From an uncultured bacterium (lineage in GTDB: Bacteria > Cyanobacteriota > Cyanobacteriia > Cyanobacteriales > Chroococcidiopsidaceae): DNA of 64,000 nucleotides. Below, one piece after another: positions 36,101 to 47,154 of the stretch (positions are counted from its first letter, which is position 1; each line of letters starts with the position of its first letter). A model generated the notes under the pieces. The model ran no database searches, had not been told where the DNA came from, and saw only the letters and a list, made by a program, of their open reading frames with translations. Made by a program: the position numbers and the translations under genes. The stretch covers positions 13,149 through 77,148 of the forward strand of contig CAXUIG010000002.1 of assembly GCA_964250845.1 (NCBI GenBank), given 5' to 3'.

Positions 36101-36902
36101 TAAAAGGTTTTAATAAAATGACACCTGCCCCTTCACCTCGCACATAACCGTCTGCTTTGGCATCAAAGGTTTTGCATTTGCCTTCAGGTGATAACATACC
36201 CAACTTACTGAAAGAGATATAACTAGTCGGTGTACACAATATGCTGACCCCACCAACTAATGCCATCTCACATTCATTTTGATTAAGTGAATTCACTGCT
36301 TGATGAATTGCGACAAGTGAGCTAGAACAAGCAGTATCTATAGGAATACTAGGACCATGAAAGTTGAAAAAATAGGAAATTCGATTTGGAATAATACAAG
36401 TATAGGTACCTGTAGAATTATGTCCTTCAATGGCTTCGCCCTGCTCCTGTAATTCTTTATAATCGAAATTACAAACGCCAATAAAAACACCAACGTTATT
36501 TCCTGATAGTTCTAATGGTGAATATCCAGCATCTTCTAAGCATGACCAGCTCAGTTCTAGCATTAGCCTTTGTTGAGGGTCCATTCGCTTAGCTTCTCGA
36601 GCTGATACCTGGAAAAAATTTGCGTCAAATTTATCTATGTCTTCGATAAATCCTCCCCATTTACTATTACTTGTATTGGGATTATCGATATTTGAAGAAT
36701 AAAAATCATCAAGATTCCATCGTTGTTTAGGTATCTCCGTTACACTATCTATTCCTTTTTCTATATTCACCCAAAATTCATTATAATTATTTGCACCTGG
36801 AAATCTACATGCCATACCAATAATGGCAATTGCCTCTGGCTGAATGCTAACCTTTAACAAATCACTATCAAAATCACCTGTCATGTCAGTTTCATTGTTC
36901 AT
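30192..36902 (-). CDS. Type I polyketide synthase module KS-AT-DH-cMT-KR-ACP. It starts directly with KS, with no loading didomain.
   Basis: ORF track, 2236 aa. KS: DTACSSSLVAIH, EAHGTGT, NIGHLE. AT: GHSVGE and HAFH (malonyl-type). DH: LVDHQVYNQIVVPGA. cMT: LRILEIGAGTGG. KR: TYLITGGMGGLG, LDD motif, but NHAAAN where NYAAAN is expected. ACP: LGMDSLTS. Confidence 0.95.
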   Translation of the reverse strand: MNNETDMTGDFDSDLLKVSIQPEAIAIIGMACRFPGANNYNEFWVNIEKGIDSVTEIPKQRWNLDDFYSSNIDNPNTSNSKWGGFIEDIDKFDANFFQVSAREAKRMDPQQRLMLELSWSCLEDAGYSPLELSGNNVGVFIGVCNFDYKELQEQGEAIEGHNSTGTYTCIIPNRISYFFNFHGPSIPIDTACSSSLVAIHQAVNSLNQNECEMALVGGVSILCTPTSYISFSKLGMLSPEGKCKTFDAKADGYVRGEGAGVILLKPFRKAVEDKNYIYGIVKGSAINHGGHARTLTSPNAYSQSQVVRSACIKANITPDTVSYIEAHGTGTPLGDPIEINALKRAYTQLYQHYGIELTAESYCGLGSVKTNIGHLESAAGIAEIIKVLLAIKYKKLPGMNNFQQLNPRIKLDGSPFYIVKETKEWEHLKTKAGTNIPRRAGVSSFGFGGVNAHVILEESSVPEEIVVTKIERPSHLMTLSAKTEKALKELAKRYQIYLSSDLKISLADICYTANSGRAHFDYRLAIVADSREQLVDQLTALASGKDTAGLISRQPGKKPPKIAFLFTGQGSQYINMGRQIYDTQPIFRQTLQQCDEILRPYLEYSLLEILYPTQALEQVSYLLDQTAYTQPALFAFEYALYQLWKSWGIEPNVVMGHSVGEYVAACIAGVFSLEDGLKLIFHRGQLMQQLPSGGDMVSLMASEELVLEAIAPYDHTVAIAAINGLESVVISGASEDIAAICQQVSTQGVKTKRLQVSHAFHSPLMTPMLKEFEQVASHVTYNQPQIPLVSNVTGQLADENITNAQYWVNHVRQTVRFADSMQTLHQQGYEVFLEVGPKPILLGMGRECLPDSVGLWLPSLRVGVSEWQQLLSSLAELYVGGMAVDWSGFDRDYFRKKVTLPTYPFQRQRYWIENTPRRHQRQQNSTKLHPLLDKKLQLPLSKEILFESEFSTQNLPFLVDHQVYNQIVVPGACHLSLLLGAAGLTFASESCLLENIVFPQALVIPEDKVRTVQLVLSPEESSASFQLISFDTVPNSSTQVGQWLVHATGKISKGVNTRLETVFLQQIKTRCQKQIAALEIYQSLQKRQIQLGSSFQWLDSIWCGEGEALAKLKWLSVGDSQYEYQLYPGLVDSCLQLISTFFPSEDTFVPFAIESFRFYQRPQSQQLWCHAVRSQSENSHLDKLLADIRLFDANGQLIAEIKGLEAKKATPNTLLQSLQLDFKENYLENWLYEVEWHPQVRFSNEQLYPDYLPALEEISRKLHPQYSQLMAEPQLKVYEVAVSQLEALSIDYVLQALTAMGWELQLGQRFTTTAIANQLGIVSQHQRLLKRLLEMLAEVGVLEAKAFEWQVIRQPEISDPQAKLNTLLTQYPIANAEFTLLGRCGPSLAQVLRGECDPLQLLFPEDDSTTAQLYENSPLTKVMNILAQQALVSILEHLPTGRGLRILEIGAGTGGTTSYLLPPLSCEQTQYHFSDIGIFFTQKAQEKFQDFPFLKYKVLDIEKDPFSQGFQRQQYDVIVAANVLHATQYLQQTLKHAKQLLAPQGILILLETTQRQRWLDLTFGLTPGWWRFSDLHLRPDYPLISAAQWQEVLQETGFTSTVNLSPAQQTQSVLSPAMVMLAQLPPSQNESLQIEPRHWLLFADRLGIAQQLAAKLDTHSQICTLVFVGEEYEQLDEQKFKINPRKPQHYHKLLQAINSKPLPLYGVVHCWSLDTLKAAELTPADLAAASLLSCGSTLHLVQALTGANLFAHPRLWLVTQGAVAINNLEGVAQSSLWGMARVIASEHPELNCVRVDLTPKADAGVVQALFEEIWLPTTEDQVAFTDQLRYVARLARYRKPKDYIETAARKPLTFREDSTYLITGGMGGLGLLVSRWMVQRGARHLVLVGRSAASVTVNEQLQELEQAGAQVKVAQADVSDVKQITKVLSEIEQTLPPLRGIIHSVGVLDDGVLQQQNWQRFAKVLAPKVQGAWHLHTLTQNQPLDFFVMFSSISSLLGNPGQSNHAAANAFLDALAHHRQAQGLAGLSINWGAWSQVGAFAQRQLDEQTKSRGIGTFTPEQGLVALDQLLCQSSTQVAVMPINWVQILEKSTSVSSFLTNFLQTSVKTVVVQSDLVEKLKTTNITKRRKLLQEHICSVVAKVLGWQSEPIDLQKRFFELGMDSLTSLDLKNHLQRSLKLSLPLNLVFEYPTVELLTDYLVQEIGLDSDKFTQENKQKNETVKLVNGKASNRIKIEL

Positions 36903-37248: not shown

Positions 37249-37309
37249 GACAGTTAAGTGGACAGTTAAGACAGTTAAGCAGATAGTTAAAATATTTAAA
37301 ACAGTTAAT
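37249..37309 (-). promoter_or_regulatory. Array of CTTAACTGT(C) motifs, read on the minus strand, upstream of the PKS-NRPS operon. Candidate transcription-factor binding array.
   Basis: The plus strand shows gacagttaag at 37249-37258 and 37261-37270, and acagttaag at 37271-37279. Degenerate copies are agatagttaa and acagttaat (37301-37309). The same motif, in the same orientation relative to transcription, occurs at 42980-42995 upstream of the LeuB-like gene and at 39654-39680. Confidence 0.45.
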
Positions 37310-37338: not shown

Positions 37339-37362
37339 TAAAAAAAGAGGCATACAGCCTCT
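37339..37362 (-). terminator. Putative intrinsic terminator after the small membrane-protein gene.
   Basis: The minus strand reads agaggc-tgtat-gcctct followed by a run of seven T. This is a 6-bp stem and 5-nt loop, about 95 nt downstream of the stop at 37458. Confidence 0.45.
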
Positions 37363-37457
37363 AGAGCCCAAAAAAGGGCTATCCTGGGATTTTAGTGAAA
37401 GTTTATCTATTACTAGGAAAACCCAAGATAATCACAAGGTGAAAGCCCTGATTTTGC

Positions 37458-37829
37458 TCAGCCATCAGATGTTTTTAGCGCCTTAAACTCAGAATAAAGC
37501 TGTATTTCAGCTTTAAGTTTGTGTTTTAGATCGTCTGAAATAGCCAAACTGTCAATTTCGCTCAGGAGACTTGCGCTTGGTTCAGTTTTGCGGCGCTCCG
37601 CATACACTCCAGAGAGAATAGCGTCAATTCCGAATCGAGCTAAAGCATCGCTAACGAGCGTCATAAGACCTATTACGGTTATACCACCTATGATTCCAAA
37701 AGGTCCACCAAACATAGCAATTGCTATTGGTATAGCCAAATAAACTGCCAACCCTCTAGTGGCTAATGTAATAACAAGTATTACGCCACTTAACCCCAGA
37801 GATGCAATTCTTTTAATTACGTCATCCAT
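37458..37829 (-). CDS. Small membrane protein (two predicted glycine-rich hydrophobic helices plus an amphipathic C-terminal tail). Paralogue of 46119..46520.
   Basis: ORF track, 123 aa. It aligns along its length with the 133-aa ORF at 46119. Shared blocks: MDxxxKxIAxLGLxGVILVIT, GGPFGIxGGI, LMTLV, ALAxxGIxxIL, YAER, TE, LKxKLK. Confidence 0.8.
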   Translation of the reverse strand: MDDVIKRIASLGLSGVILVITLATRGLAVYLAIPIAIAMFGGPFGIIGGITVIGLMTLVSDALARFGIDAILSGVYAERRKTEPSASLLSEIDSLAISDDLKHKLKAEIQLYSEFKALKTSDG

Positions 37830-37957
37830 TACAGTACCTGTTAGTTAGTTAAAATTTTGCCTTTTTTACTTTATCCTACATTTCGGTTGTTGTCATTATT
37901 TATTTGCCATCAAAACATCAGCTGTACAAGTGACACAAGTAAGCGCCCCTGGATGAA

Positions 37958-39523
37958 TTATCCAGAGACTGCAGCTAACTGTGCTTCAAGCGTTTTCACT
38001 TTATCTGACAAATCCTTGACAGCGTTTACCAGGGTGAAAGTAAGCTCTGAAAGGTCTGTCATTAAAAGGTCTGACAACTCGCCCTTTTGTGTTTGTAAAA
38101 CCATGCTGGGGGCAATTTTTCGCAACTCCTGGGCGACAAAACCTACATACTGCTTACCTACTTCACTGCCCTTGGCATCAAACTCCGGCTTATAACGGAA
38201 TTTCACTGGTGACAGTTGCTCAATAAGTTCTAATCCCTGCTTGTAAGGCGTAATATTTGTTTTTGCTCTAGCGTCTGAAAGCGCCGCAAAGCTGCCACCA
38301 CCCGTCTTGGAAGCGTTGCCGGAAATACTTAAGGTCTGGTCGGGGTTTGAGGTATTGATTCCCACTCTCTGTGTTGATGAAAATATATTTATCGCTTCCC
38401 AACCATTATTAACGTTACCTGGTACATAAACCGTAATTACATCACCGGGGTTTGAATCAGGGCGGTTATAACCCCAACGAGTCAACTTAGATTTGGAGTT
38501 ATCTATTGACCAACTCGGACCCCAAAGATCAATCCCGCCCTCGGCGTTAAAAGCAGCAATTCCCTTAGGACACAACCTAAATGGGTCTTTACCAGCTACG
38601 TTAAAGTAAAGCTTGTCATCGTTATAGTTTTGCTCTATTTTAGTTTTTGTGGTGGTGCCGTCAGTATCACAAAACTCAAACCTATTAACAACGGTTGTAG
38701 CATCTTTACGGCTGATTCTAATCCCCTCATTGCCTGCTGCCGTGATCTGAAGCTTTTGTTGAGGGCTATTATTTCCTACCCCAAATTTCCCATCACCTGA
38801 AAACGTCAAGTTGAATCCAGCGCTGGGAATATCTGTATTATGCAGAAGATTTTGACCTAATTCAATAACTGAACCGCTCGTTAACAATCCATTTCTAGCT
38901 GTTGGGCTAATGTTGACAGTGGAATTTGTTACCGACAGAGTTAAATCGCCGGTAGCAGGGTCAAAAGCAAGCGTTTGTTCCTCTGCCGCCTGTGCAATTG
39001 CTGGTATGGTTGATAAATCGATAGTGTTGCCATTGCTGATACCTAGCACGTTCTCGGTGAGCGTGAGAGTTTGAACATCTCTACCCTGTGGAAACGCCGC
39101 TGACAGGTCTACAGTTGCGTTTTTATCGTTAACTGTAGATGTAAGCGTTGTTCCGGTCAACGTCATCGTGTGAGTTGTCGCGTCGTTCAGCGCCTGTGGT
39201 GTGATTGCAGATTGCTGTACTCCTGGTGGCACTGGTACTGGTACGAGCAGCCCTAATTCTTGCCCTGGAACAGGTGCTATCGTTTCGACATTAATCGAGG
39301 AGGTCTTGTTCTTAAAGTCGTCGCCCACCCAGCTAACGTCGCTGGTAAAGGTCTTACTCGTGCCCTCACATCCAGTCGCTTCGTAGACGGTGACCTTTAT
39401 GCCTGCTGGCACTTTTAACGAACTCAACTTATCGTTGCCGAAAATGTCATACTTGCCCGGCTCAAGTTCTTGGTAGGCTCCTTGGAAGTTAGTGCCTGCA
39501 TAGATCATAACTTTGTCTGACAT
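37958..39523 (-). CDS. Tail-fibre-like protein: N-terminal beta/gamma-crystallin-type domain, Thr/Asn-rich fibre region, and C-terminal peptidase-S74 intramolecular chaperone domain.
   Basis: ORF track, 521 aa. N-terminus: MIYAGTNFQGAYQELEPGKYD...DKLSSLKV (Greek-key-like). C-terminus: LSDARAKTNITPY...LSPVKFRYK...GFVAQELRKIAP...coiled coil. This matches the SDxRxK auto-cleavage motif and layout of S74 chaperone domains. Confidence 0.8.
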   Translation of the reverse strand: MSDKVMIYAGTNFQGAYQELEPGKYDIFGNDKLSSLKVPAGIKVTVYEATGCEGTSKTFTSDVSWVGDDFKNKTSSINVETIAPVPGQELGLLVPVPVPPGVQQSAITPQALNDATTHTMTLTGTTLTSTVNDKNATVDLSAAFPQGRDVQTLTLTENVLGISNGNTIDLSTIPAIAQAAEEQTLAFDPATGDLTLSVTNSTVNISPTARNGLLTSGSVIELGQNLLHNTDIPSAGFNLTFSGDGKFGVGNNSPQQKLQITAAGNEGIRISRKDATTVVNRFEFCDTDGTTTKTKIEQNYNDDKLYFNVAGKDPFRLCPKGIAAFNAEGGIDLWGPSWSIDNSKSKLTRWGYNRPDSNPGDVITVYVPGNVNNGWEAINIFSSTQRVGINTSNPDQTLSISGNASKTGGGSFAALSDARAKTNITPYKQGLELIEQLSPVKFRYKPEFDAKGSEVGKQYVGFVAQELRKIAPSMVLQTQKGELSDLLMTDLSELTFTLVNAVKDLSDKVKTLEAQLAAVSG

Positions 39524-39653
39524 AGTTTTAACTCCTTTATTTACTGGACTAGAAACCTGGGACAGCCATGTTAAACTGGCTCAAAAGTTAAGGTACAAAT
39601 ACAAACTTTACCTGCCCTAACTTTATTAAGTCAAGACATTTACCACCTTCTTT

Positions 39654-39855
39654 CTTAACTGTCTTAACTGTCTTAACTGTCTCAATTTTATCCTTTAATT
39701 TTTTCCTTAAGTGTCTTATGTGGTATTGACTTTTTCCTGTAATAAGGAAAATATTAATATGAAATATTGTTAAATACCTTAGCTCGACTTTGTTCATTTG
39801 CCAAATTCTCAACTAAGGAAGCAATATGAGAAAATGCTCTCAGTGCTCAAATCTA
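39654..39855 (+). repeat. Copy 1 of a duplicated promoter-like region (CTTAACTGT x3 plus about 170 bp), homologous to 42980..43220.
   Basis: cttaactgt occurs three times in tandem at 39654-39680. Blocks shared in the same order with copy 2: ccttaagtgtcttat, attgacttt, gaaaatatt, attgttaaa, ttagctcgacttt, agcaata.gagaaaatgc.ctcagtg.tcaaatc. Confidence 0.7.
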
Positions 39856-39980
39856 TTTGATCAATGTCATCATTGAAGATAAAGATTTTGCTAAGTTTAT
39901 TAAAACGTTATCACTTTACGGCGTTGGTCTTGTCTTGGTAACGCTCTTGGGGTTGTGTTGCAATTGGATAACACCACCTG

Positions 39981-40531
39981 TTATTTGACCTGTAGCCAAT
40001 TGAAGATTTGTCCAATTGTGAGTTGCAGATTCGAGGCGAAGTCAGGAACACTTAGCACATCATTTAGCTCCTCCTCCAGTTCTGGCTGCTGTCCGGGAGG
40101 ATAGAGCAGGATGGAGCGTTCCGCTGGCTCGATAAGCCATCCCATGAGAGAGCCATGCTTGAGACTGTGCAGAATTTTGCGAGTTGTTTTAGTAGAGGAT
40201 TGTTCTGGACTGAGGATTTCAATGATCCAGTCTGGATGAGATTCAAAGGCGTTGGCAATCGTGCCGCCGGGGTTAGTGGGGATGCGCTCCCAGGTAAAGA
40301 CAGCGATATCGAGGACGATTGAGCGTCCTCCAAAGGTACAGCGTAGTTCTGGAAGAGCAAGAGCAATACGCAGATCTTCTACTACTGCGTTGATAGCAGG
40401 ATGCGGCTGTGTTCTCCTTGTGGCATTGGTTTTTGAATAATCTGTCCATCAATGAATTCCCTGGCAGGTTTAGTTTCGGGCAGGAGCAGAAACTCATTTA
40501 GGGTGATGGAATTAAGAGAAGTTTGTACCAT
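39981..40531 (-). pseudogene. Uma2-family (DUF820, PD-(D/E)XK-like) endonuclease gene disrupted by an internal out-of-frame deletion.
   Basis: From ATG 40531: MVQTSLNSITLNEFLLLPETKPAREFIDGQIIQKPMPQGEHSRIL, then a stop at 40381-40383. A shifted frame continues from about 40393: INAVVEDLRIALALPELRCTFGGRSIVLDIAVFTWERIP...HPDWIIEILSPEQSSTKTTRKILHSLKHGSLMGWLIEP...IFNWLQVK, with its stop at 39981-39983. Confidence 0.75.
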
Positions 40532-40734
40532 CCGTCATTACTCCCAGTCGTGGACTGTGTCCTTATTCTAACTAGGGACGAGCGTCGGCATTGTCAAGTT
40601 AACGGAACGAATCTGTCAGAACTGGATTCAAACGGAAGAGTACAAATACTGGTTCTGGTATGCTAATAGCCATAAAGCAGCATCCGTTGGCAAACCATGA
40701 AGTCTTTTGTTACCCTTACCAGGGGTGAACTGAT

Positions 40735-41476
40735 TCATTCTTCGTCGGGGTTAATACCTGCTGCCCGTAAGCGCTCTGCCAACTGCTCGGCTCTTTGCTG
40801 CTCCTGTTTAGCTATTTCCTCCGGCAATAAGACTAATCTCTCTTGGCGATCGTAGAATCGTAACCACTGGCAAGTTCCCGTTGGCGGCTCGCGTCGTATG
40901 CATCCTGACCATGTCCCTAGCCATAGCTCTAAGCTTTCACACCACAACCAACCATGCTCGTTTGCTATCAGAGGTTGATATTGCTGTGCAGCGTCTAGGT
41001 GCCAGCCCTCCAACGACTCCGGGTCAAACGGATCGTAAATACAGTACTCTCTGGTGCGAAATGTTCGTTCGTAGAGCCGCTTTCTGATTCCTTTGTCTAT
41101 CTTTGCCGTGCTGGGCGACATCAGCTCGACAATCACGTCAGGATACCGTCCTTCCTCCTCCCAGATTACCCAACCCTGGCGCTCGCGACTGCCATCTACA
41201 TCCAGAGCCACAAAAAAATCTGGTCCTTTGAAAATCTCGGTTCATTGCTTGAGAGCGGCTGTAGTAGACGAACATATTGCCACCGACGAAAAAGTCTGTT
41301 CGCTCCGCTAGGGCTGTCAGGACCGAATCAATCAAGACATTCATTGCAATCCGATGGCGATTCGTATCCATTGGCTCTCCATCATCAAAAACTAAATCGG
41401 TTGGAGGCTCAGGCGGCTCCCAAATTTCTGCTTGGAGAGATAACACTTCCTGCTCGGCAGTTACTTTAGCGGTCAT
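40735..41476 (-). pseudogene. Uma2-family endonuclease gene with a +1 frameshift, or a sequencing error in a short homopolymer.
   Basis: Track ORFs 41138..41476 (…DLVFDDGEPMDTNRHRIAMNVLI…VYYSRSQAMNRDF) and 40735..41211 (ALDVDGSRERQGWVIWEEEGRYPDVIVELMSPST…) are the two halves of one protein. The frames switch at gattttcaaagg (about 41231-41236). Removing one T restores NRDFKGPDFFVALDV. Confidence 0.75.
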
Positions 41477-41591
41477 GGCTTTGTTAGAGGGTAGAGTGCC
41501 GATTCACTTTTAAGCGAGACTGAGACCGGAAAGCCATCCGATGGGTACAATCATCCGTTCAGTTGCAGTCATTATAGCGCTGAAAGCGTAA

Positions 41592-41632
41592 CAAAAGTGC
41601 AGGCAAATCTTTGGTCGAAGTGTTTGGGGCGT
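41592..41632 (+). repeat. Left arm of a perfect 41-nt inverted repeat flanking the intact Uma2 gene.
   Basis: caaaagtgcaggcaaatctttggtcgaagtgtttggggcgt. Its exact reverse complement is at 42594-42634, and weaker similarity continues for about 15 nt more. Confidence 0.85.
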
Positions 41633-41751
41633 TTTTACAGGGAATTTTGTAATGATTCAGGTGGGGGGTATTTTTACTAGCAATCCACTTCGATTTCGTT
41701 GCTGTTAAAGTGGCAAAAGCGTGGATTTAAGTACAATAGCTAGAGGATCAG

Positions 41752-41883
41752 AAGCCAGCTCTCACCTCAATCTTGAATAGCGAATTCTGACACTTTCCTT
41801 CCATATCACTACTAAGGACGACAGCCAGAGTATAACAAGCCAGCTCTCACCTCAATCTCCCAAGCGCGAGTTCTGACACTTTC
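41752..41883 (+). repeat. Two direct copies of a 46-47-nt unit just upstream of the intact Uma2 gene.
   Basis: The units span 41752-41797 and 41837-41883. Both read aagccagctctcacctcaatct, then an 11-12 nt variable stretch, then ttctgacactttc. Confidence 0.85.
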
Positions 41884-41921
41884 GGCTAAATTAAAGTCAG
41901 CCATTTGTTGAGTATAAGTCT

Positions 41922-42470
41922 ATGACTTCAGCGATTCAAACACTTACGCTAGAAGCCTTCCTGCATCTCCCAAACATTGAGGAATCTCCTGCTTGGGAAT
42001 TCATTGATGGAGAGATGTTACAAAAACCGATGCCCACAACTCATCACAGCATCTTGCAAAAGCGATTGGTTGCTGCAATTGACCAAGCACAGAGCCAATA
42101 TGAAGCGTTTCCTGAGTTGCGTTGTGTGCTGAGTCAACAGTCGGTAGTCCCCGATGTGGCTGTGATTCTAAACCAGCGTGTACCTTCCGAAAATAGTCCA
42201 GTGCAAGGTGCGCCTGATTGGATTATCGAGATTCTGTCGCCTGAGCAGAGTACGACCAAGTTGATTGCGAAGATTCAAATCTGTCTGACGGAAGGCGCGC
42301 AACTAGGCTGGCTGCTCGATTCTACAGAACGGGTGATAATGGTGTTCTGGAGCGATCGCCCTCTCGCCATCATCTCTGGAGAGACGGTTGTGCCTGTCCT
42401 TCCAGGAGTAAACCTCCAGATGAGGGCAAAACAAATTTTTGACTGGTTACAGCCACGACGAGCGAAATGA
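41922..42470 (+). CDS. Uma2-family (DUF820) putative endonuclease, intact.
   Basis: ORF track, 182 aa. Family hallmarks: EFIDGEMLQKPMPTTHHS, PELRCVL, PDVAV, APDWIIEILSPEQSTTKL, GAQLGWLLD. Confidence 0.85.
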   Translation: MTSAIQTLTLEAFLHLPNIEESPAWEFIDGEMLQKPMPTTHHSILQKRLVAAIDQAQSQYEAFPELRCVLSQQSVVPDVAVILNQRVPSENSPVQGAPDWIIEILSPEQSTTKLIAKIQICLTEGAQLGWLLDSTERVIMVFWSDRPLAIISGETVVPVLPGVNLQMRAKQIFDWLQPRRAK

Positions 42471-42473
42471 TGC

Positions 42474-42859
42474 CACATAGATCAGAAATTGGTGTCTGAG
42501 TAGACTGACCTCACCCCGATGCGGGAACCAAATCCGACAATCGCCCCACTGTGCAGAGATTCAGCGCTTCCATCCAAGGAATACCTCGTAAAGACGCCCC
42601 AAACACTTCGACCAAAGATTTGCCTGCACTTTTGGCATCTGGCAGGAAGGAACGTAGGAACTGCACAAACGCTACCCTATTCTCCGCTTGCACGCCTATG
42701 CAGGTAGGTTTCCCGCTCCGAACCAAAATAGATCACTGCAGTCCGTTGCTGGTTTTTAAGTTGAGATGCTGTTGCCACTGTCACCACTCCTGATTTCTCA
42801 GTAGAAGTTTACGCAAAAAAACCTCATTCTGCGCCAGACACCAATTTCTGATCTATGTG
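42474..42859. repeat. 386-bp segment bounded by perfect 25-bp terminal inverted repeats (MITE-like). It contains the right arm of the 41-nt inverted repeat.
   Basis: cacatagatcagaaattggtgtctg at 42474-42498 and its exact reverse complement at 42835-42859. I saw no obvious target-site duplication. Confidence 0.6.
42594..42634 (-). repeat. Right arm of the perfect 41-nt inverted repeat.
   Basis: Exact reverse complement of 41592-41632. Confidence 0.85.
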
Positions 42860-42979
42860 AGAAATTAATGAGACTAAATCGCAATAAATTGGAGTATTAT
42901 CTACGAGGTATTCGGGCTATGGAGCTGGTTTTATCTACTTTTTAGCTTTCATGTCGCCCCCGCAGCTATAGCATCCTCT

Positions 42980-43220
42980 CTTAACTGTCTTAACTTTATC
43001 CTTAAGTGTCTTATCTGGGATTGACTTTATTCTGCAATCATGAAAATATTTATTGGCTCTATTGTTAAACACCGATTAGCTCGACTTTATTTATGATCAG
43101 CGTATAATTTATCTTTGGCAAATGGAGTGGAGTCAGTAGTTTCCAATATCTGTTTGAAAAACAACTGCAAAATCCCCCACCCAGAAAGCAATACGAGAAA
43201 ATGCGCTCAGTGATCAAATC
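42980..43220 (+). promoter_or_regulatory. Copy 2 of the duplicated region. Likely promoter/leader of the LeuB-like/LeuDC-like operon, with CTTAACTGT motifs and a TTGACT box.
   Basis: cttaactgtcttaact at 42980-42995 and cttaagtgtc at 43001-43010. TTGACT at 43020-43025 is followed after about 17-18 nt by aaatatt. The same TTGACT-spacer-aaatatt arrangement is conserved in copy 1 (39727 onward). Confidence 0.4.
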
Positions 43221-43279
43221 CCTTGCTGCTGAGCAAGAACGCTATTTTACAGCCAACGAGGTGTTGGAGTTATGGGAAA

Positions 43280-44362
43280 ATGGGGTCTTTAAGTAATCCA
43301 TCATATCGGATCGTCGCCATTCCTGGGGAAGGGATTGGGCCAGAAGTTGTGGAAGCTTCCTTAAAAATTCTGCAACAGGTGGCTAAACTTGAAGGATTTA
43401 CCCTGCAGGTAGACTATGGCTGGCTCGGCGCAACTGCCTTCAAAAAACTGGGTAGTTACTTCCCTCAAGCTACCGCCCAACTGTGCGAAACAGCCGATGG
43501 GATTGTATTTGGTGCGATTACCCAAGGCGGACTGCTAGAACTACGAAAGCACTTCGACTTTTTTTGCAATCTTCGCCCAATCCGTAGCGTTAAAAGTCTC
43601 CTGAATAAATCTAGCCTTCGACCAGAGAAAGTTCAAGGACTCGATATTCTGATTATTCGAGAACTGGTCAGTGGGATCTATTTTGGACCATCTGGACGGT
43701 CTTGCGATCGCCAAGGAACTTACGGATACCATACGATGCGCTATTACGATGAGGAGATTCGTCGGATCGCTCGCGCGGCGTTGCAGCAAGCCCAACGTCG
43801 CCGAGGATTACTCACCGTAGCCCACAAAGAAAATGCCTTGCCCCATTTGCCCTGGACTTGTCTAGTGCAAGAAGAAGCCACACAGTTTCCAGGCGTTGTC
43901 GTCGAGCCAATGCTGGTGGATAACTTAGCCATGCAAATGGTTTTCAATCCGCAGCGGTTTGATGTGATTTTGGCGGGAAATCTGTTTGGAGATATTCTTA
44001 GCGATATTGGCGGTGCATTAGTTGGCTCAATCGGCTTATTAGGATCAGCCAGTCTTAACGCTAATGGATTTGGGCTGTACGAAGCCATTCACGGCACAGC
44101 CCCAGACATTGCCGGAAAGGGAATTGCTAATCCCCTCGGAACTCTCGGAGCTTGTATTTTAATGCTTCAGCAATGGGGAGAGGCACAAGCCGCCCAACGG
44201 ATTATTGAAGCACAAGACCGAATTTTATCCCAGGGATACCGGACAGCCGATTTGTCTCCCCAAGGAAAAGAAATTTTTGTCAACACTGAAACCTTAGTTG
44301 ACCTTTTGCTTGATGAAGTTTCAACCGTGCAACATTCTGCACTAGGAGTGATTCATGAGTAA
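43280..44362 (+). CDS. hphB: Isopropylmalate/isocitrate dehydrogenase-family enzyme (LeuB-like). Candidate HphB of homophenylalanine/homotyrosine biosynthesis.
   Basis: The track ORF starts at TTG 43223. I prefer ATG 43280, which has GGAG 11-14 nt upstream and gives MGSLSNPSYRIVAIPGEGIGPEV. Motifs: NLFGDILSD and HGTAPDIAGKGIANP. It is adjacent to an anabaenopeptin-type NRPS, as reported for Nostoc punctiforme hph genes (from memory). Confidence 0.65.
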   Translation: MGSLSNPSYRIVAIPGEGIGPEVVEASLKILQQVAKLEGFTLQVDYGWLGATAFKKLGSYFPQATAQLCETADGIVFGAITQGGLLELRKHFDFFCNLRPIRSVKSLLNKSSLRPEKVQGLDILIIRELVSGIYFGPSGRSCDRQGTYGYHTMRYYDEEIRRIARAALQQAQRRRGLLTVAHKENALPHLPWTCLVQEEATQFPGVVVEPMLVDNLAMQMVFNPQRFDVILAGNLFGDILSDIGGALVGSIGLLGSASLNANGFGLYEAIHGTAPDIAGKGIANPLGTLGACILMLQQWGEAQAAQRIIEAQDRILSQGYRTADLSPQGKEIFVNTETLVDLLLDEVSTVQHSALGVIHE

Positions 44363-46064
44363 CGCAAATAACGTTTTGCACCTTGGAGATGATATCAATA
44401 CCGATGATATTATTCCTGCCCAGCGGGCAACGACAGATGACCCTGAGCACTTAAAACAGAATGCTTTAGAATATCTCATCGGTCCAGGCGAACTGCTAAA
44501 ATACGATGTGATTGAAGCCGGAGAAAATTTCGGCTGTGGTTCCAGCCGAGAAGTTGCCCCCATTGCCCTCAAAGCCGCCGGAATTCAGAAGATTCGTGCG
44601 CGATCGTTTGCCGAAATTTTTTATCGTAATAGCATCAATATTGGACTGTCCCTAGAAATTCTGGGGGAAAAACAGCAGAACCCAGTAGTTGATGCGATCG
44701 CAGCAGCAGGCGGGCTGATGCCTTTTAATCAGATGCGTCGTCGCTACGAGATCACCATTCCTCCCAGCCTCACCCCTCCACGACCCATGACTTTAGTGGA
44801 AAAACTCTTGGCCCTCGCCTCCGGAAATTCCTACGTCCAGCCTGGAGAGGTGGTTTTTGCCCAGGTCGATTTAGCCTTATCCCATGATGCAGTGGCCGGT
44901 CCTGTGGCCAAAATATTTTATCAACAGTATGGAGAAGGGGCAAAGTTGTGGGACTCCCAACGGGTAGTTTTGGTAGCAGATCACTTTATCCAAGTCAATG
45001 ACATCCGTGCTGATCACAAAGCCCATCTCATGTATGAACAGATGGTTCAGTTTGCCCAAGACCAAGGATGCCACTTATTTGATGTGGTTTCCCCAGGTGA
45101 AGCAGCAGGCATCTGCCACGTTTTACTGCCAGAACAAGGGTTTATCCGACCAGGAATGGTGATTGCCGGTACAGATTCTCATACTTGCACCTACGGGGCA
45201 TTGGGAGCCTTTTCTACAGGCGTAGGAACGACGGATATGGCCAATATTTTTGCCATGGGGGATATGTGGATTCGTGTTCCCCCAACCCTAGTATTCGAGT
45301 TGTCTGGAACCCTGCCTCCCCAAATCAGTGCCAAAGATATTATCCTGTTTATCCTGGGGCAAATCGGCTGTGGTGGTGCAACCAGTAGGGTGATGGAGTT
45401 TAAAGGGTCGATCATCGAGCAATTACCCCTTGATGAACGGATGACGCTAGCCAATATGGCAATCGAGTGTGGTGCGATGTGTGGCTTGATTGCTCCTGAT
45501 CAGGTGACCCGTAAGTATGTAAAAAACAGCACATCACAATGGTTTGAAGAGATTATCGCCGATTCTGATGCTGAGTACGAAAGGATTTATCAATTTGACC
45601 TGAGTGATTTAGAACCGCAAGTCGCACGCCCCCCAAAACCGGATCAGGTAGTTGCCATTAGTCAGTTAGGGGACATTCCTATTACCAAAGCCTTTATTGG
45701 CTCTTGTACGGGGGGCAAACTCTACGATCTAGCTCAGGCAGCGGAAGTTTTGAAGGATCGCCAACTGGCAGACGGCGTAAACTTGTTTATTGTACCTGCT
45801 TCGGTTGAGATTCGCCAACAAGCCCAAGCGTTAGGCTATCTCGACATTTTTGAACGAGCAGGGGCACAGATTCTGAAGTCAGGTTGTGGGGCTTGTATCA
45901 ACTCTGGACTTGGGGTTTTGGCAAAAGAAGAAACAGGGGTTTATGCAACCAATCGCAATTTTAAAGGACGCAGCGGCGATCCAACCGGCAAAAACTATTT
46001 GGCCTCCCCAAGAACGGTGGCCATCTCAGCCGTAAATGGAAAAATTAGTCATGATCTCGATTAA
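44355..46064 (+). CDS. hphCD: Fused aconitase-superfamily isomerase: a LeuD-like small-subunit domain at the N-terminus and a LeuC-like large-subunit domain at the C-terminus. Candidate HphCD.
   Basis: ORF track, 569 aa. N-terminus: GDDINTDDIIPA, ENFGCGSSREVAP. C-terminus: GTDSHTCTYGALGAFSTGVGTTDMA, IGSCTGGK, NRNFKGRSG. The start overlaps the upstream stop by 8 nt (ATGAGTAA). Confidence 0.7.
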   Translation: MSNANNVLHLGDDINTDDIIPAQRATTDDPEHLKQNALEYLIGPGELLKYDVIEAGENFGCGSSREVAPIALKAAGIQKIRARSFAEIFYRNSINIGLSLEILGEKQQNPVVDAIAAAGGLMPFNQMRRRYEITIPPSLTPPRPMTLVEKLLALASGNSYVQPGEVVFAQVDLALSHDAVAGPVAKIFYQQYGEGAKLWDSQRVVLVADHFIQVNDIRADHKAHLMYEQMVQFAQDQGCHLFDVVSPGEAAGICHVLLPEQGFIRPGMVIAGTDSHTCTYGALGAFSTGVGTTDMANIFAMGDMWIRVPPTLVFELSGTLPPQISAKDIILFILGQIGCGGATSRVMEFKGSIIEQLPLDERMTLANMAIECGAMCGLIAPDQVTRKYVKNSTSQWFEEIIADSDAEYERIYQFDLSDLEPQVARPPKPDQVVAISQLGDIPITKAFIGSCTGGKLYDLAQAAEVLKDRQLADGVNLFIVPASVEIRQQAQALGYLDIFERAGAQILKSGCGACINSGLGVLAKEETGVYATNRNFKGRSGDPTGKNYLASPRTVAISAVNGKISHDLD

Positions 46065-46118
46065 AGACTGAGCTGTAAGATCAATAGAGAAATATTGTCA
46101 GGATTTTAGGTAATTCCA

Positions 46119-46520
46119 ATGGACGAAATCGTAAAAAAAATTGCCGGTCTGGGTCTTCCTGGCGTGATTCTCGTGATTACAATGGCCGCATCAGGGGGGG
46201 TGGGTAGTTCCTACGCCATTATAGCTGCGATCGCGGGGTTGGGAGGTCCGTTTGGCATCGTAGGAGGTATAGGCATGCTTAGTCTGATGACACTTGTGGG
46301 GGAGGCTCTAGCGGGATATGGAATTGAAACCATTCTTCATAGCATCTATGCAGAACGCAGCCAAACCGAATCCGCGAGATTTCTCCTCAAAGAAATTAAA
46401 GCTTTACCCATTACAGAGGAGCTAAAACTCAAACTTAAAACTCAACTTGGCCCAGAACAAATCAGTAGTGATTCTAAAGAGTCTCAGGCCCCAAAGACAA
46501 TTGAAATCACAGATGATTAA
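46119..46520 (+). CDS. Small membrane protein, paralogue of 37458..37829.
   Basis: ORF track, 133 aa. It has the same conserved blocks as the 123-aa paralogue and starts 54 nt downstream of the LeuDC-like stop. Confidence 0.8.
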   Translation: MDEIVKKIAGLGLPGVILVITMAASGGVGSSYAIIAAIAGLGGPFGIVGGIGMLSLMTLVGEALAGYGIETILHSIYAERSQTESARFLLKEIKALPITEELKLKLKTQLGPEQISSDSKESQAPKTIEITDD

Positions 46521-46743: not shown

Positions 46744-47154
46744 ATGAACAATAGCAATCTTTCTGATATAGAAATAGAAAAATTTCTTTGTGGTAAATGG
46801 CGCTTTGATACGTCTTGGGAAAAAATATATATTGGATTTAGGAATGATATGACCTATGAGCAAACCAGGATTGAAACATTTATTTTATCTAAACCTAGGG
46901 AATTTATAACAGGTAATAAATTTAATGGGGTATGGCACGTAAGTGAAAGGAAATTGTGGTTAAATGTTAAAAGTATTCCGAACTCCATTTTTAATTTCCA
47001 GATCCCGCTATTATCTAAGGTTTCTGTTGCAGATATGGCAGCTAGATTCGGTTCTATGTTTATGACAGAAAAGTATGAAGTCATTGAAATTAATAGTTTT
47101 AAATTTCTGATTATGGATGTAGACGAATCAATTGTTGGCACCAGAATAACTTAA
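46744..47154 (+). CDS. Hypothetical protein in a visibly AT-rich segment.
   Basis: ORF track, 136 aa. I recognise no motif. An antisense ORF (46854..47141) overlaps it and is less plausible. Composition is much more AT-rich than the flanking genes. Confidence 0.5.
   Translation: MNNSNLSDIEIEKFLCGKWRFDTSWEKIYIGFRNDMTYEQTRIETFILSKPREFITGNKFNGVWHVSERKLWLNVKSIPNSIFNFQIPLLSKVSVADMAARFGSMFMTEKYEVIEINSFKFLIMDVDESIVGTRIT

What the first reader, a model, noticed from the sequence alone, without database searches (positions are those of the whole stretch)
37458..46520. Two paralogous small glycine-zipper membrane proteins, one at the head of each biosynthetic cluster
The 123-aa ORF (37458..37829, minus strand) and the 133-aa ORF (46119..46520, plus strand) are clearly homologous. 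Shared blocks are MDxxxKxIAxLGLxGVILVIT…GGPFGIxGGI…LMTLV..ALA..GI..IL…YAER..TE…LKxKLK. Both have two glycine-rich hydrophobic segments and a charged amphipathic tail.

They face away from each other. One lies about 550 bp upstream of the PKS-NRPS operon. The other lies between the LeuDC-like gene and the AptA-like gene. I do not recognise the family.

The mirror-image placement suggests a cluster-associated role, but that is speculative. Possibilities include export or anchoring of the megasynthase, self-protection, or a membrane sensor. Alternatively the pair may simply mark the ends of the 8 kb island between them.
Basis: partly seen in the sequence, partly recalled or inferred. Interest (0 to 1): 0.6.

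Follow-up and report, generated by a model that had tools for sequence, protein, structure and literature searches.

The report
Undescribed membrane-hairpin protein of peptide clusters
Two related ~125-aa membrane proteins belong to an undescribed, mostly cyanobacterial family that sits inside anabaenopeptin, microviridin and other peptide gene clusters, but only the right-hand copy is a real cluster gene; the left-hand one travels with a tail-fibre-like gene, not with the PKS next to it.

Summary
Both ORFs are intact and homologous (53% identity, E 2e-37). Each has a 52-54-residue uncharged, about 25% glycine stretch with a GxxxGxxxG zipper, followed by a charged helical tail.

The family ("c0") has no match in Pfam, NCBIfam, PADLOC, PHROGs, PDB or by Foldseek. 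In 89 homologues from 76 species loci:
- 70% lie within 10 kb of an NRPS/PKS gene (background 5.6%).
- 45% lie directly upstream of one (background 0.42%).
- Others sit between the microviridin ATP-grasp ligases and the ABC transporter.

The c0 tree tracks cluster type. LamG-phospholipase genes are c0's tightest partner: all 17 genomes with one also have c0.

The right copy is a typical hphB-hphCD-c0-aptA member. The left copy is different. Its conserved partner is the S74 fibre gene (4 of 4 related contigs). A 95%-identical strain lacks the whole ~47 kb PKS-NRPS cluster but keeps fibre + c0.

The ~110-aa domain also occurs fused to Mrr nuclease, GTPases, CN-hydrolase and HTH domains, and in a Bifidobacterium prophage. 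This implies an N-in/C-in membrane hairpin module.

The mechanism is inferred only. The best guess is a cytoplasmic-face membrane adaptor for the cluster's lipase, exporter and enzymes.

The parts
46119..46520 (+). c0-right: a 133-aa small membrane-hairpin protein of the anabaenopeptin-cluster type. It keeps the acidic C-terminal tail (...PKTIEITDD).
   Evidence: ORF. 299 homologues. The hphCD-c0-NRPS synteny occurs in 24 loci. AF2 gives an all-helical model with pLDDT 78.
37458..37829 (-). c0-left: a 123-aa divergent paralogue without the acidic tail. It forms a two-gene unit with the upstream fibre gene.
   Evidence: It is a long-branch outlier in the tree. Orthologues at 79-96% identity always follow the S74 fibre gene. 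dN/dS is about 0.32 against the L083 orthologue, but from only 10 substitutions.
37958..39523 (-). 521-aa beta/gamma-crystallin + Peptidase_S74 (intramolecular chaperone) tail-fibre-like protein. It is the conserved upstream partner of c0-left.
   Evidence: Pfam PF13884 at 3.6e-14 and Crystall. It matches tail-fibre PHROGs. Its synteny with c0-left is conserved in L083, L089, L090 and L091.
37346..37362 (-). Terminator-like hairpin plus T-run about 95 nt after the c0-left stop. It separates c0-left from the PKS promoter region. Homology with the cluster-less strain L083 ends here (37359).
37250..37279 (-). Three CTTAACTGT copies ahead of the 58-aa ORF and the PKS. The same motif occurs 3x at 39654-39680 (+) and 1x at 42980 (+) ahead of hphB. 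It is a candidate shared operator of the two clusters and lies outside the c0-left transcription unit.
   Evidence: 7 matches against 0.84 expected by chance; none of 100 shuffles reached 7.
43223..46064 (+). hphB-like (LeuB family) and hphCD-like (fused LeuD+LeuC) homo-amino-acid genes directly upstream of c0-right. No terminator was detected between them and c0-right.
   Evidence: Pfam and NCBIfam. Terminator scan.
46744..47154 (+). c6: a 136-aa protein of unknown function (31% GC). It belongs to a conserved cassette gene family that elsewhere follows the GUN4-domain gene.
   Evidence: Cluster c6 occurs in 15 loci. It is 62% identical to the L021 c6.
47296..53868 (+). AptA-like NRPS (A-T-C-A-T-C/E), the first synthetase of the anabaenopeptin-type cluster. 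The cluster continues through the end of contig C2 into C22, which carries an NRPS end, hphA, an ABC transporter and a GUN4-domain gene.
30192..36902 (-). First PKS of the left PKS-NRPS cluster (C2:3556-50050, including a terminal ABC transporter). It is a neighbour of c0-left, not a demonstrated partner.

Best explanation
Both genes encode members of an undescribed family of small proteins, here called c0.

**Architecture.** The N-terminal ~60 residues form a glycine-zipper membrane hairpin. Both ends of the domain face the cytoplasm. A ~50-residue conserved helical, charged cytoplasmic domain follows.

**Genomic setting of the subfamily.** In Nostocales-type cyanobacteria one subfamily has become a dedicated accessory gene of peptide natural-product clusters. 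It sits between the precursor-supply or tailoring genes and the first synthetase (anabaenopeptin-type and other NRPS/PKS clusters). In microviridin clusters it sits between the ATP-grasp ligases and the ABC transporter. It usually occurs with a LamG-phospholipase gene, and often with a GUN4-domain gene and the small c6 gene.

**Proposed mechanism (inferred, not shown).** c0 acts on the cytoplasmic face of the membrane as an adaptor or organiser. It would tether or regulate cluster-encoded partners: the LamG-lipase through its acidic C-terminal tail, the ABCD-type exporter, and possibly the synthetase. Production and release would then happen at the membrane, as already proposed for the MdnE scaffold in microviridin biosynthesis. 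c0 is optional, not part of the core chemistry.

**The two window copies.** The right copy is the anabaenopeptin-cluster c0, although its lipase partner has been lost from this genome. The left copy is an old, divergent paralogue whose functional unit is 'S74 tail-fibre-like protein + c0'. Its position next to the PKS-NRPS cluster results from a ~47 kb cluster insertion or deletion at that site.
For: **Shown directly**
- Homology of the two ORFs.
- A family of at least 299 close and 397 representative clusters, with no Pfam, NCBIfam, PADLOC, PHROGs or PDB match and no Foldseek neighbour with E < 1.
- A 52-54-residue uncharged, Gly-rich stretch and an all-helical AF2 model with pLDDT 78.
- Association with clusters: 62 of 89 copies lie within 10 kb of a megasynthase and 40 of 89 directly upstream on the same strand. 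The genome background is 5.6% and 0.42%. 84 of 89 lie beside a megasynthase, ATP-grasp, ABC, patatin or GUN4 gene.
- Neighbour identities: MvdC/D ATP-grasp, GNAT, ABC_membrane_2 transporter, HMGL/LeuB/LeuCD-like hph genes, LamG+patatin, GUN4.
- c0 clades follow cluster type: microviridin clade 100/99, c20 clade 99/89, patatin-c0-ABC clade 99/98. Paralogues from one genome fall in different clades.
- Every one of 17 genomes with a LamG-patatin orthologue has c0, within 10 kb at 16 of 18 loci.
- In Microcoleaceae loci the patatin domain is replaced by a Tle1-like lipase, but LamG, a lipase and c0 are all kept.
- The acidic tail tracks the patatin gene: 45 tail+patatin, 13 tail only, 7 patatin only, 24 neither.
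- Left copy: the fibre-c0 pair is conserved in L083, L089, L090 and L091. The PKS cluster is absent in L083. A terminator-like hairpin follows c0-left.

**Inferred**
- N-in/C-in topology, because an HTH domain precedes the domain and Mrr nuclease, GTPase or CN-hydrolase domains follow it in fusion proteins.

**Literature precedent**
[quoted passage not shown] 2011).
- GUN4-superfamily and hypothetical proteins have been noted in mvd clusters, with unknown role (PMC4558948).
Against:
- No physical interaction was tested, because multimer modelling was not available.
- c0 is missing from about two thirds of microviridin loci in the phylum sample. It is rare in the window's own family (2 of 21 genomes). 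So it cannot be essential for biosynthesis.
- The window genome lacks the LamG-patatin partner yet keeps an intact c0-right, so the lipase cannot be its only partner.
- Distant family members occur with no cluster at all: a prophage accessory slot, a RadC + kinase neighbourhood, and a Leptolyngbya locus.
- The association statistics are inflated by shared ancestry of syntenic loci.
- The number of membrane passes is not resolved. The first hydrophobic segment is about 18 residues. The second is about 30 residues with a GGP kink.
Confidence: 0.45

Rival explanations
1. c0 is a pore-forming, holin-like release factor. Glycine-zipper hairpins would oligomerise into a membrane lesion. Alone or with the LamG-phospholipase, this would let out products that have no export signal: the cluster's peptides, the lipase itself, or, for the left copy, the signal-less fibre protein.
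For: - The size and layout resemble class II holins: a short N-terminus, two hydrophobic segments, a GxxxGxxxG zipper and a charged C-terminal tail, with N-in/C-in topology.
- A membrane-attacking enzyme is its tightest partner.
- c0-left follows a tail-fibre-like gene, a position where lysis genes often lie in phage and tailocin clusters (own knowledge).
- A distant member is prophage-borne.
Against: - No PHROG holin family matches any member.
- The best BFVD 'holin' match has E = 1.3, which is noise.
- No endolysin gene is nearby.
- The prophage copy lies at the integrase/repressor end, not in a lysis cassette.
- Fusions to an HTH, a nuclease and GTPases fit a membrane anchor better than a pore.
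- A dedicated ABC exporter is already present in most clusters.
Confidence: 0.2
2. c0, the LamG-phospholipase and the GUN4-domain protein form a conflict (defence or cell-suicide) module that merely resides in, or guards, variable genomic islands that also hold peptide clusters. c0 would be its membrane sensor or effector, and it would have no role in peptide production.
For: - The patatin domain resembles CBASS CapV-type effectors: PADLOC 3.6e-63, NCBIfam CBASS_lipase 8e-51 (below its cut-off), and PDB CapV chains.
- The GUN4 region matches the C-terminal part of PD-T4-6.
- c0-domain fusions to Mrr nuclease, GIMAP-like GTPases and EEP domains, and its place in a prophage accessory slot, are typical of conflict systems.
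- GUN4 fusions in cyanobacterial conflict systems are described in PMC7159879.
- A patatin-c0-ABC-GUN4-c6 cassette exists without any core biosynthetic gene within 10 kb.
Against: - c0 sits inside operons at fixed positions (hphCD-c0-aptA; ATP-grasp-c0-ABC) across many genera.
- c0 clades co-diversify with cluster type. That pattern is not expected of a hitch-hiker.
- No PADLOC model matches c0.
- No cyclase, STAND NTPase or other sensor typical of such systems was seen next to it.
Confidence: 0.15
3. c0 is a membrane-bound regulator or signal sensor that controls transcription or activity of the adjacent cluster.
For: - It often sits at the 5' edge of operons.
- An XRE-type HTH fused to the c0 domain exists (P0169).
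- A shared CTTAACTGT array sits near both window clusters.
Against: - Stand-alone c0 has no DNA-binding, kinase or anti-sigma domain.
- No cognate regulator is a conserved neighbour.
- c0-left lies outside the motif-plus-PKS unit and survives the loss of that cluster.
Confidence: 0.08
4. The pair has no cluster-related meaning. The two paralogues simply bracket a mobile or variable 8 kb island.
For: - The interval holds a Uma2-gene insertion and a truncated hphA remnant.
- The left flank is a site of a 47 kb insertion or deletion.
Against: - The genes share only 69% DNA identity over 211 nt, so they are not recombination substrates or terminal repeats.
- Each copy has its own conserved synteny elsewhere: hphCD-c0-aptA and fibre-c0.
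- Both are intact and keep all family-invariant residues.
Confidence: 0.03

Closest known systems
MdnE/MvdA ABC transporter as membrane scaffold of microviridin biosynthesis (Weiz et al. 2011, as summarised in PMC7823629)
   Same: It is a membrane component encoded in the same clusters. [quoted passage not shown]
   Different: MdnE is a ~670-aa ABC half-transporter with no sequence relation to c0. c0 is a 110-135-aa hairpin protein with no ATPase domain. No experiment links c0 to the complex.
EACC1 (effector-associated constant component 1) of Kaur, Burroughs, Iyer and Aravind 2020 (PMC7159879)
   Same: It is a small, constant membrane protein with a strongly conserved TM segment carrying a patch of glycines. 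It is encoded next to variable effector genes and was proposed to be more than a simple anchor.
   Different: EACC1 has a single TM helix with alpha+beta extensions. It is mainly actinobacterial and pairs with a caspase-domain gene. The c0 Pfam scan at E <= 1 found no family at all, and no caspase neighbour was seen.
Class II / pinholin-type holins
   Same: About 100 aa, two hydrophobic segments, a glycine-zipper motif, a charged cytoplasmic C-terminus and N-in/C-in topology (own knowledge of holins; c0 features).
   Different: No PHROG or Pfam holin model matches. No endolysin partner is present. c0 has a much longer, strongly conserved C-terminal domain. The domain is also fused to cytoplasmic enzymes.
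Pfam glycine-zipper families (C19orf12-like PF20721, Gly-zipper 2TM types)
   Same: Gly/Ala-rich paired hydrophobic helices. The GTPase fusion proteins carry a c0 domain at the N-terminus and a C19orf12-like zipper at the C-terminus.
   Different: c0 itself matches none of these models. Its conserved juxtamembrane YAER..TE / PIS.ELK.KLK domain is unique to the family.

Membership tests
c0 family (undescribed; defined here by alignments A1/A2) | N-terminal MD(E/D)(I/V)(V/I)K(K/R).A.LG(L/F).G motif followed by an uncharged hydrophobic segment | tested here: met
   Both window proteins carry it. M1, D2, K6, A9, L11, G12 and G15 are invariant in A1.
c0 family (undescribed; defined here by alignments A1/A2) | GGPFG..GG glycine zipper in the second hydrophobic segment | tested here: met
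   GGPFGIVGGI in the right copy and GGPFGIIGGI in the left. G43, P44, G46 and G50 are at least 90% conserved even in the 68-sequence superfamily alignment.
c0 family (undescribed; defined here by alignments A1/A2) | Juxtamembrane Y.ER..TE and L(P/A)I(S/T)..LK.KLK helices | tested here: met
   Both copies have them. AF2 predicts helices 69-83, 86-95 and 100-110 with pLDDT 86-90.
Cluster-linked (Nostocales-type) c0 subfamily | Position inside a peptide cluster, directly upstream of a synthetase or the ABC transporter, conserved in orthologues | tested here: met
   This holds for the right copy only: hphCD-c0-(c6)-aptA, as in 24 other loci. It does NOT hold for the left copy, whose orthologues follow the S74 fibre gene and lack the PKS.
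Cluster-linked (Nostocales-type) c0 subfamily | Acidic C-terminal tail P(K/R)T(I/V)EI(V/T)(E/D)(E/D) | tested here: met
   The right copy ends in PKTIEITDD. The left copy ends in KALKTSDG and has no tail.
Holins | Match to a holin family model and/or an adjacent endolysin gene | tested here: not met
   No PHROG hits and no Pfam hits. No lysin gene is among the neighbours.
EACC1 (PMC7159879) | Single conserved TM helix with a 3' neighbouring caspase- or cyclase-domain effector gene | tested here: not met
   c0 has two or three hydrophobic segments. No Pfam family matches at E <= 1. The neighbours are synthetases, an ABC transporter or a lipase, not caspases.
Microviridin precursor peptide (MdnA/MvdE) | PFFARFL leader motif and a conserved T.KYPSDWE-type core (PMC4558948 figure legend for the leader motif; own knowledge for the core) | tested here: not met
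   Neither motif is present in either window protein or in the family consensus (sequences).
Known anti-phage defence proteins (PADLOC-DB 2.0) | Match to a PADLOC model | tested here: not met
   There are no hits for either window protein. Only weak compositional hits (E 1e-3 to 1e-4) appear, from the hydrophobic region of distant or fused members (P0128, P0137, P0146) to LeoBC, PDC-M09A and BnzA.
Membrane protein with N-in/C-in hairpin topology | Both termini of the domain on the cytoplasmic side | not testable with these tools
   Inferred only from fusion partners that must be cytoplasmic: an HTH before the domain, and Mrr nuclease, GTPase or CN-hydrolase after it. It needs reporter fusions or a structure.

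The most novel reading that the evidence does not exclude
c0, the LamG-phospholipase, the GUN4-domain protein, c6 and the ABCD-type transporter form a previously unrecognised accessory system. It has been recruited repeatedly by cyanobacterial protease-inhibitor peptide clusters: anabaenopeptin and microviridin as shown here, and possibly cyanopeptolin- and aeruginosin-type clusters, judged from domain order only. In this reading the system couples the intracellular peptide stock to a regulated membrane event. That event could be lipase-driven release or altruistic lysis on damage, infection or a tetrapyrrole/light signal. c0 would be the membrane receptor or gate that the lipase docks onto through the acidic tail.
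Probability: 0.15. Interest if true: 0.8.

Novelty: new variant of a known kind. Interest (0 to 1): 0.55.

Why it matters
How cyanobacterial oligopeptides such as anabaenopeptins and microviridins are localised, exported or released is poorly understood. It is also unclear why their clusters carry unexplained genes; GUN4-like and 'hypothetical' genes have been noted in mvd clusters since 2015 (PMC4558948).

This work defines a conserved, unannotated membrane protein family. It shows that the family co-diversifies with cluster type and links it tightly to a LamG-phospholipase. That yields a concrete, testable gene set in a genetically tractable model, Nostoc punctiforme.

c0 is also a practical marker for genome mining. 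Its presence directly upstream of a synthetase is about 100-fold enriched over background.

The left copy carries a caution for cluster-boundary calling. A family member next to a cluster is not necessarily part of it.

Finally, the ~110-aa domain is a new, widely reused membrane module, also found fused to nucleases, GTPases and transcription factors. It deserves a family entry.

Tried and rejected
- **Family libraries.** Pfam, NCBIfam, PADLOC and PHROGs scans of both proteins and of distant members gave no family.
- **PDB profile search.** Only chance-level hits to ABCE1 / RNase L inhibitor (E 0.011) over the C-terminal helices.
- **Structure search.** Foldseek of the pLDDT-78 model against PDB and BFVD found nothing below E = 1. 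A first AF2 run with 20 close sequences gave only pLDDT 65.
- **Precursor-peptide idea.** Rejected. c0 has no PFFARFL or double-glycine leader, and the adjacent ABC transporter has no C39 peptidase domain.
- **MbtH-like idea** for c0 or the 58-aa ORF. Rejected on sequence; the 58-aa ORF has no Pfam hit.
- **Island-end repeat idea.** Rejected.
- **Literature.** Searches for anabaenopeptin+microviridin+patatin and for the Npun_F2456/2459 locus tags found nothing relevant.
- **Cyanopeptolin/aeruginosin assignment.** Calling the c20 and c26 megasynthases cyanopeptolin- and aeruginosin-type rests only on Pfam domain order and memory. It was not verified.
Full report
**1. Observation**

Both ORFs are present exactly as described: 37458..37829 (-) of 123 aa and 46119..46520 (+) of 133 aa. 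They align over 120 residues at 53% identity, E 2e-37. They are the only two copies in the 6.8 Mb genome.

Residues 8-61 of the right copy and of the family consensus form a 52-54-residue stretch without a single charged residue. About 25% of it is glycine, Kyte-Doolittle 19-residue means reach 1.9-2.0, and it contains a G42-G46-G50 zipper. In the left copy the stretch is broken by one Arg at position 25. The C-terminal half is charged and helical.

AlphaFold2 with a 68-sequence alignment gives an all-helical model with pLDDT 78 and pTM 0.62. Its helices span residues 2-11, 13-24, 31-41, 43-67, 69-83, 86-95 and 100-110.

At DNA level the two genes share only 69% identity over 211 nt. They are ancient paralogues, not a repeat.

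**2. An undescribed family**

Several searches found no known relative:
- Pfam and NCBIfam at E <= 1.
- PADLOC and PHROGs.
- A PDB profile search.
- Foldseek against PDB and BFVD.

The word-indexed search found 299 homologues. All are annotated 'hypothetical', and nearly all come from Nostoc, Anabaena, Scytonema, Brasilonema, Stigonema and relatives.

The exhaustive profile search found 397 representative clusters. Among 394 good cyanobacterial species genomes, 67 carry the domain (31 of 152 genera). Only 2 of 21 genomes of the window's own family carry it. The window organism is therefore an atypical host.

**3. Genomic context of the core subfamily**

I fetched 76 loci with up to 10 kb flanks from species-representative genomes. 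I called ORFs and clustered all neighbours. The recurrent neighbours were identified with Pfam, NCBIfam, PADLOC and PDB:
- NRPS/PKS megasynthases.
- An HMGL-like, LeuB-like and fused LeuD-LeuC-like trio, the HphA/B/CD homo-amino-acid pathway described for Nostoc apt clusters in PMC9564503.
- Two MvdC/MvdD ATP-grasp ligases plus a GNAT, which make up a microviridin cluster.
- An ABC_membrane_2-type ABC transporter.
- A ~710-aa Laminin_G_3 + patatin phospholipase.
- A ~570-aa protein with a C-terminal GUN4 domain.
- A ~140-aa unknown protein (c6).

Four architectures recur:
- (A) patatin-(hphB or hphA)-hphCD-c0-NRPS-NRPS.
- (B) ATP-grasp-ATP-grasp-c0-ABC-(GNAT)-GUN4-c6.
- (C) patatin-c0-ABC-GUN4-c6.
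- (D) c0 followed directly by a 2,900-3,200-aa megasynthase.

Of 89 c0 genes, 62 (70%) lie within 10 kb of a megasynthase. 40 (45%) lie immediately upstream of one on the same strand, and 16 immediately upstream of the ABC transporter. Only 5 have none of the marker genes nearby. In the window's own genome the same measures for all other ORFs are 5.6% and 0.42%.

The c0 tree follows cluster type rather than genome:
- Microviridin-linked copies form one clade (100/99).
- The c20-linked copies form another (99/89).
- The patatin-c0-ABC copies form a third (99/98).
- Copies from one genome fall in different clades.

These numbers are inflated by shared ancestry. Even so, the recurrence across at least four unrelated kinds of core biosynthesis is independent evidence of a real link.

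**4. The tightest partner is a LamG-phospholipase**

In the 394-genome sample, all 17 genomes with an orthologue of the LamG-patatin protein also have c0. At 16 of 18 loci the two genes lie within 10 kb, and most are directly adjacent. Stand-alone CapV-like patatins show no such link.

In two Microcoleaceae MAG loci the gene between two c0 copies is Laminin_G_3 fused to a Tle1-like phospholipase instead of patatin. This domain displacement keeps 'LamG + lipase + c0' together.

The conserved acidic C-terminus of c0, P(K/R)T(I/V)EI(V/T)(E/D)E, tracks the patatin gene. The counts are 45 with tail and patatin, 13 with tail only, 7 with patatin only and 24 with neither. Microviridin-type copies carry a different, hydrophobic tail. 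Copies that head a megasynthase on their own have lost the tail.

**5. c0 is optional**

Only about 10 of roughly 30 microviridin ATP-grasp loci in the phylum sample have c0 within 5 kb. The literature reports that mdnA-C alone yield tricyclic microviridin in E. coli (PMC7823629). c0 is therefore an accessory, not part of the core chemistry.

**6. The wider superfamily**

The ~110-aa domain also occurs at the N-terminus of several fusion proteins:
- An Mrr-type nuclease.
- AIG1/GIMAP-like GTPases that end in a C19orf12-type glycine zipper.
- A CN-hydrolase.
- A multi-TM EEP enzyme.

It also occurs at the C-terminus of an XRE-type HTH protein and of proteins with unknown N-termini.

Stand-alone distant members lie in varied settings:
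- A Bifidobacterium crudilactis prophage, between the integrase and the ImmA-type repressor module.
- Beside RadC and a kinase-WD40 gene.
- In a Leptolyngbya locus without any cluster.

HTH, nuclease and GTPase domains must be cytoplasmic. Both ends of the domain must therefore face the cytoplasm. This is an inference that fits a hairpin with a very short outer loop (SGGSS). So the domain is a general membrane module, and only one subfamily is cluster-dedicated.

**7. The right copy**

Its context is hphB-like, hphCD-like, c0, c6, then an A-T-C-A-T-C/E NRPS. No terminator was detected between hphCD and c0.

The cluster runs off contig C2 and resumes on C22 with an NRPS end, hphA, the ABC transporter and the GUN4-domain gene.

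The genome has no LamG-patatin gene. A 65-residue remnant of the hphA C-terminus lies just upstream of hphB, at about window 43099-43293. The head of the operon therefore seems to have been truncated by the Uma2-gene insertion noted by other readers.

**8. The left copy**

It is a long-branch outlier with few relatives. In all four informative contigs the S74 fibre gene lies directly upstream. These are L083 at 96% protein identity, and L089, L090 and L091 at about 80%. Neither the PKS nor the 58-aa ORF lies downstream in any of them.

L083 is 95% identical in DNA to window 39679..37359. It then continues in C2:53-3520, beyond the ABC transporter that ends the left cluster. That strain therefore lacks the whole ~47 kb PKS-NRPS cluster while keeping fibre + c0-left intact.

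The breakpoint coincides with a terminator-like hairpin at 37346-37362. It lies just before the triple CTTAACTGT array that precedes the PKS.

dN/dS between the two orthologues is about 0.32, but it rests on only ten substitutions.

The left copy therefore belongs to a 'tail-fibre-like protein + c0' unit. Its closeness to the PKS is a consequence of a cluster insertion or deletion, not of shared function.

**9. Mechanism**

Nothing tested here shows what c0 does. The most economical reading of the anatomy has five elements:
- A cytoplasm-facing hairpin with a conserved helical domain.
- A tail that co-varies with the lipase.
- Fixed positions next to the exporter or the first synthetase.
- Reuse of the domain as an anchor in fusion proteins.
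- A published proposal that these peptides are made on a membrane scaffold (MdnE; PMC7823629).

Together these suggest that c0 is a membrane adaptor or organiser for cluster-encoded partners. I hold the identity and association statements with high confidence and the mechanism with low confidence, about 0.45 overall.

The rivals, in order of my confidence, are:
- A holin-like pore or release factor (0.2).
- A conflict-system module co-resident with clusters (0.15).
- A regulator or sensor (0.08).
- A meaningless island boundary (0.03).

**10. Comparison with known systems, and novelty**

The closest functional analogue is the MdnE scaffold idea. The closest conceptual analogue is EACC1 of Kaur et al. 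2020, a small glycine-patch TM 'constant component'. c0 fails EACC1's defining features, and it also fails the defining features of holins (see the membership table).

An earlier agent of this scan reached a similar family-level reading on Nostoc punctiforme (e1-2694812). That is not independent evidence. My tests here agree with it and add four points:
- The lipase link.
- The tail correlation.
- The fusion-based topology.
- The different status of the left copy.

I rate the finding as a new variant of a known kind: a cluster accessory membrane protein built from a new domain family. It has moderate interest.

Noticed in passing
window ..37359 (= C2:3520-50507): The whole left PKS-NRPS cluster is a ~47 kb presence/absence polymorphism. 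It runs from the CTTAACTGT array to the terminal ABC transporter at C2:3556-5346. The 95%-identical metagenome contig L083 joins window 37359 directly to C2:~3520.
   Followed up: partly
window 43099-43293: A remnant of the hphA C-terminus (residues 328-392, 83% identity) lies just upstream of hphB. An intact hphA lies on contig C22 next to the ABC and GUN4 genes. The head of the apt operon, including any LamG-patatin gene, seems to have been truncated by the Uma2-gene insertion.
   Followed up: partly
window 37250-37279 (-), 39654-39680 (+), 42980-42988 (+): CTTAACTGT occurs 7 times against 0.84 expected. It forms triple arrays ahead of the PKS operon and at the left edge of the Uma2 island, and occurs once ahead of hphB. 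It is a possible common operator of the two clusters.
   Followed up: partly
window 46744-47154: The AT-rich (31% GC) 136-aa ORF is not an orphan. It belongs to a conserved gene family (c6, found in 15 loci) that normally ends the ABC-GUN4-c6 cassette. Here it has moved next to c0.
   Followed up: partly
L058:10488-12470 and L064 (Microcoleaceae MAGs): A Laminin_G_3 + Tle1-like phospholipase replaces Laminin_G_3 + patatin between two c0 copies, next to microviridin-type ATP-grasp, GNAT and ABC genes.
   Followed up: partly
L021, L022, L032, L035 (about 7.7-14.8 kb of each locus): A five-gene cassette patatin-c0-ABC-GUN4-c6 occurs with no core biosynthetic gene within 10 kb. Its neighbours are GH31, MFS, GT4, aldo-keto reductase and 2OG-oxygenase genes.
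   Followed up: partly
L003/L014, L004/L018, L013/L066 and genomes G045, G060, G166, G367: Anabaenopeptin-type and microviridin clusters often lie about 27-38 kb apart on one contig, each with its own c0 paralogue. Together they look like a protease-inhibitor 'supercluster'.
   Followed up: no
P0132/P0182/P0285 (Tolypothrix and others), L088:7001-8744: GIMAP/AIG1-like GTPases carry a c0 domain at the N-terminus and a C19orf12-like glycine zipper at the C-terminus, so they are anchored at both ends. A second AIG1-like GTPase gene follows.
   Followed up: no
L079-L082:8001-8342: A 113-aa c0-domain protein sits in the accessory slot of a Bifidobacterium crudilactis prophage, between the integrase/DUF2335 genes and the Peptidase_M78 (ImmA) repressor module.
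   Followed up: no
window 37958-39523: The crystallin + S74 fibre protein has no obvious signal peptide and matches phage tail-fibre PHROGs. No other phage gene is nearby, so how it would reach the cell surface is unexplained.
   Followed up: no
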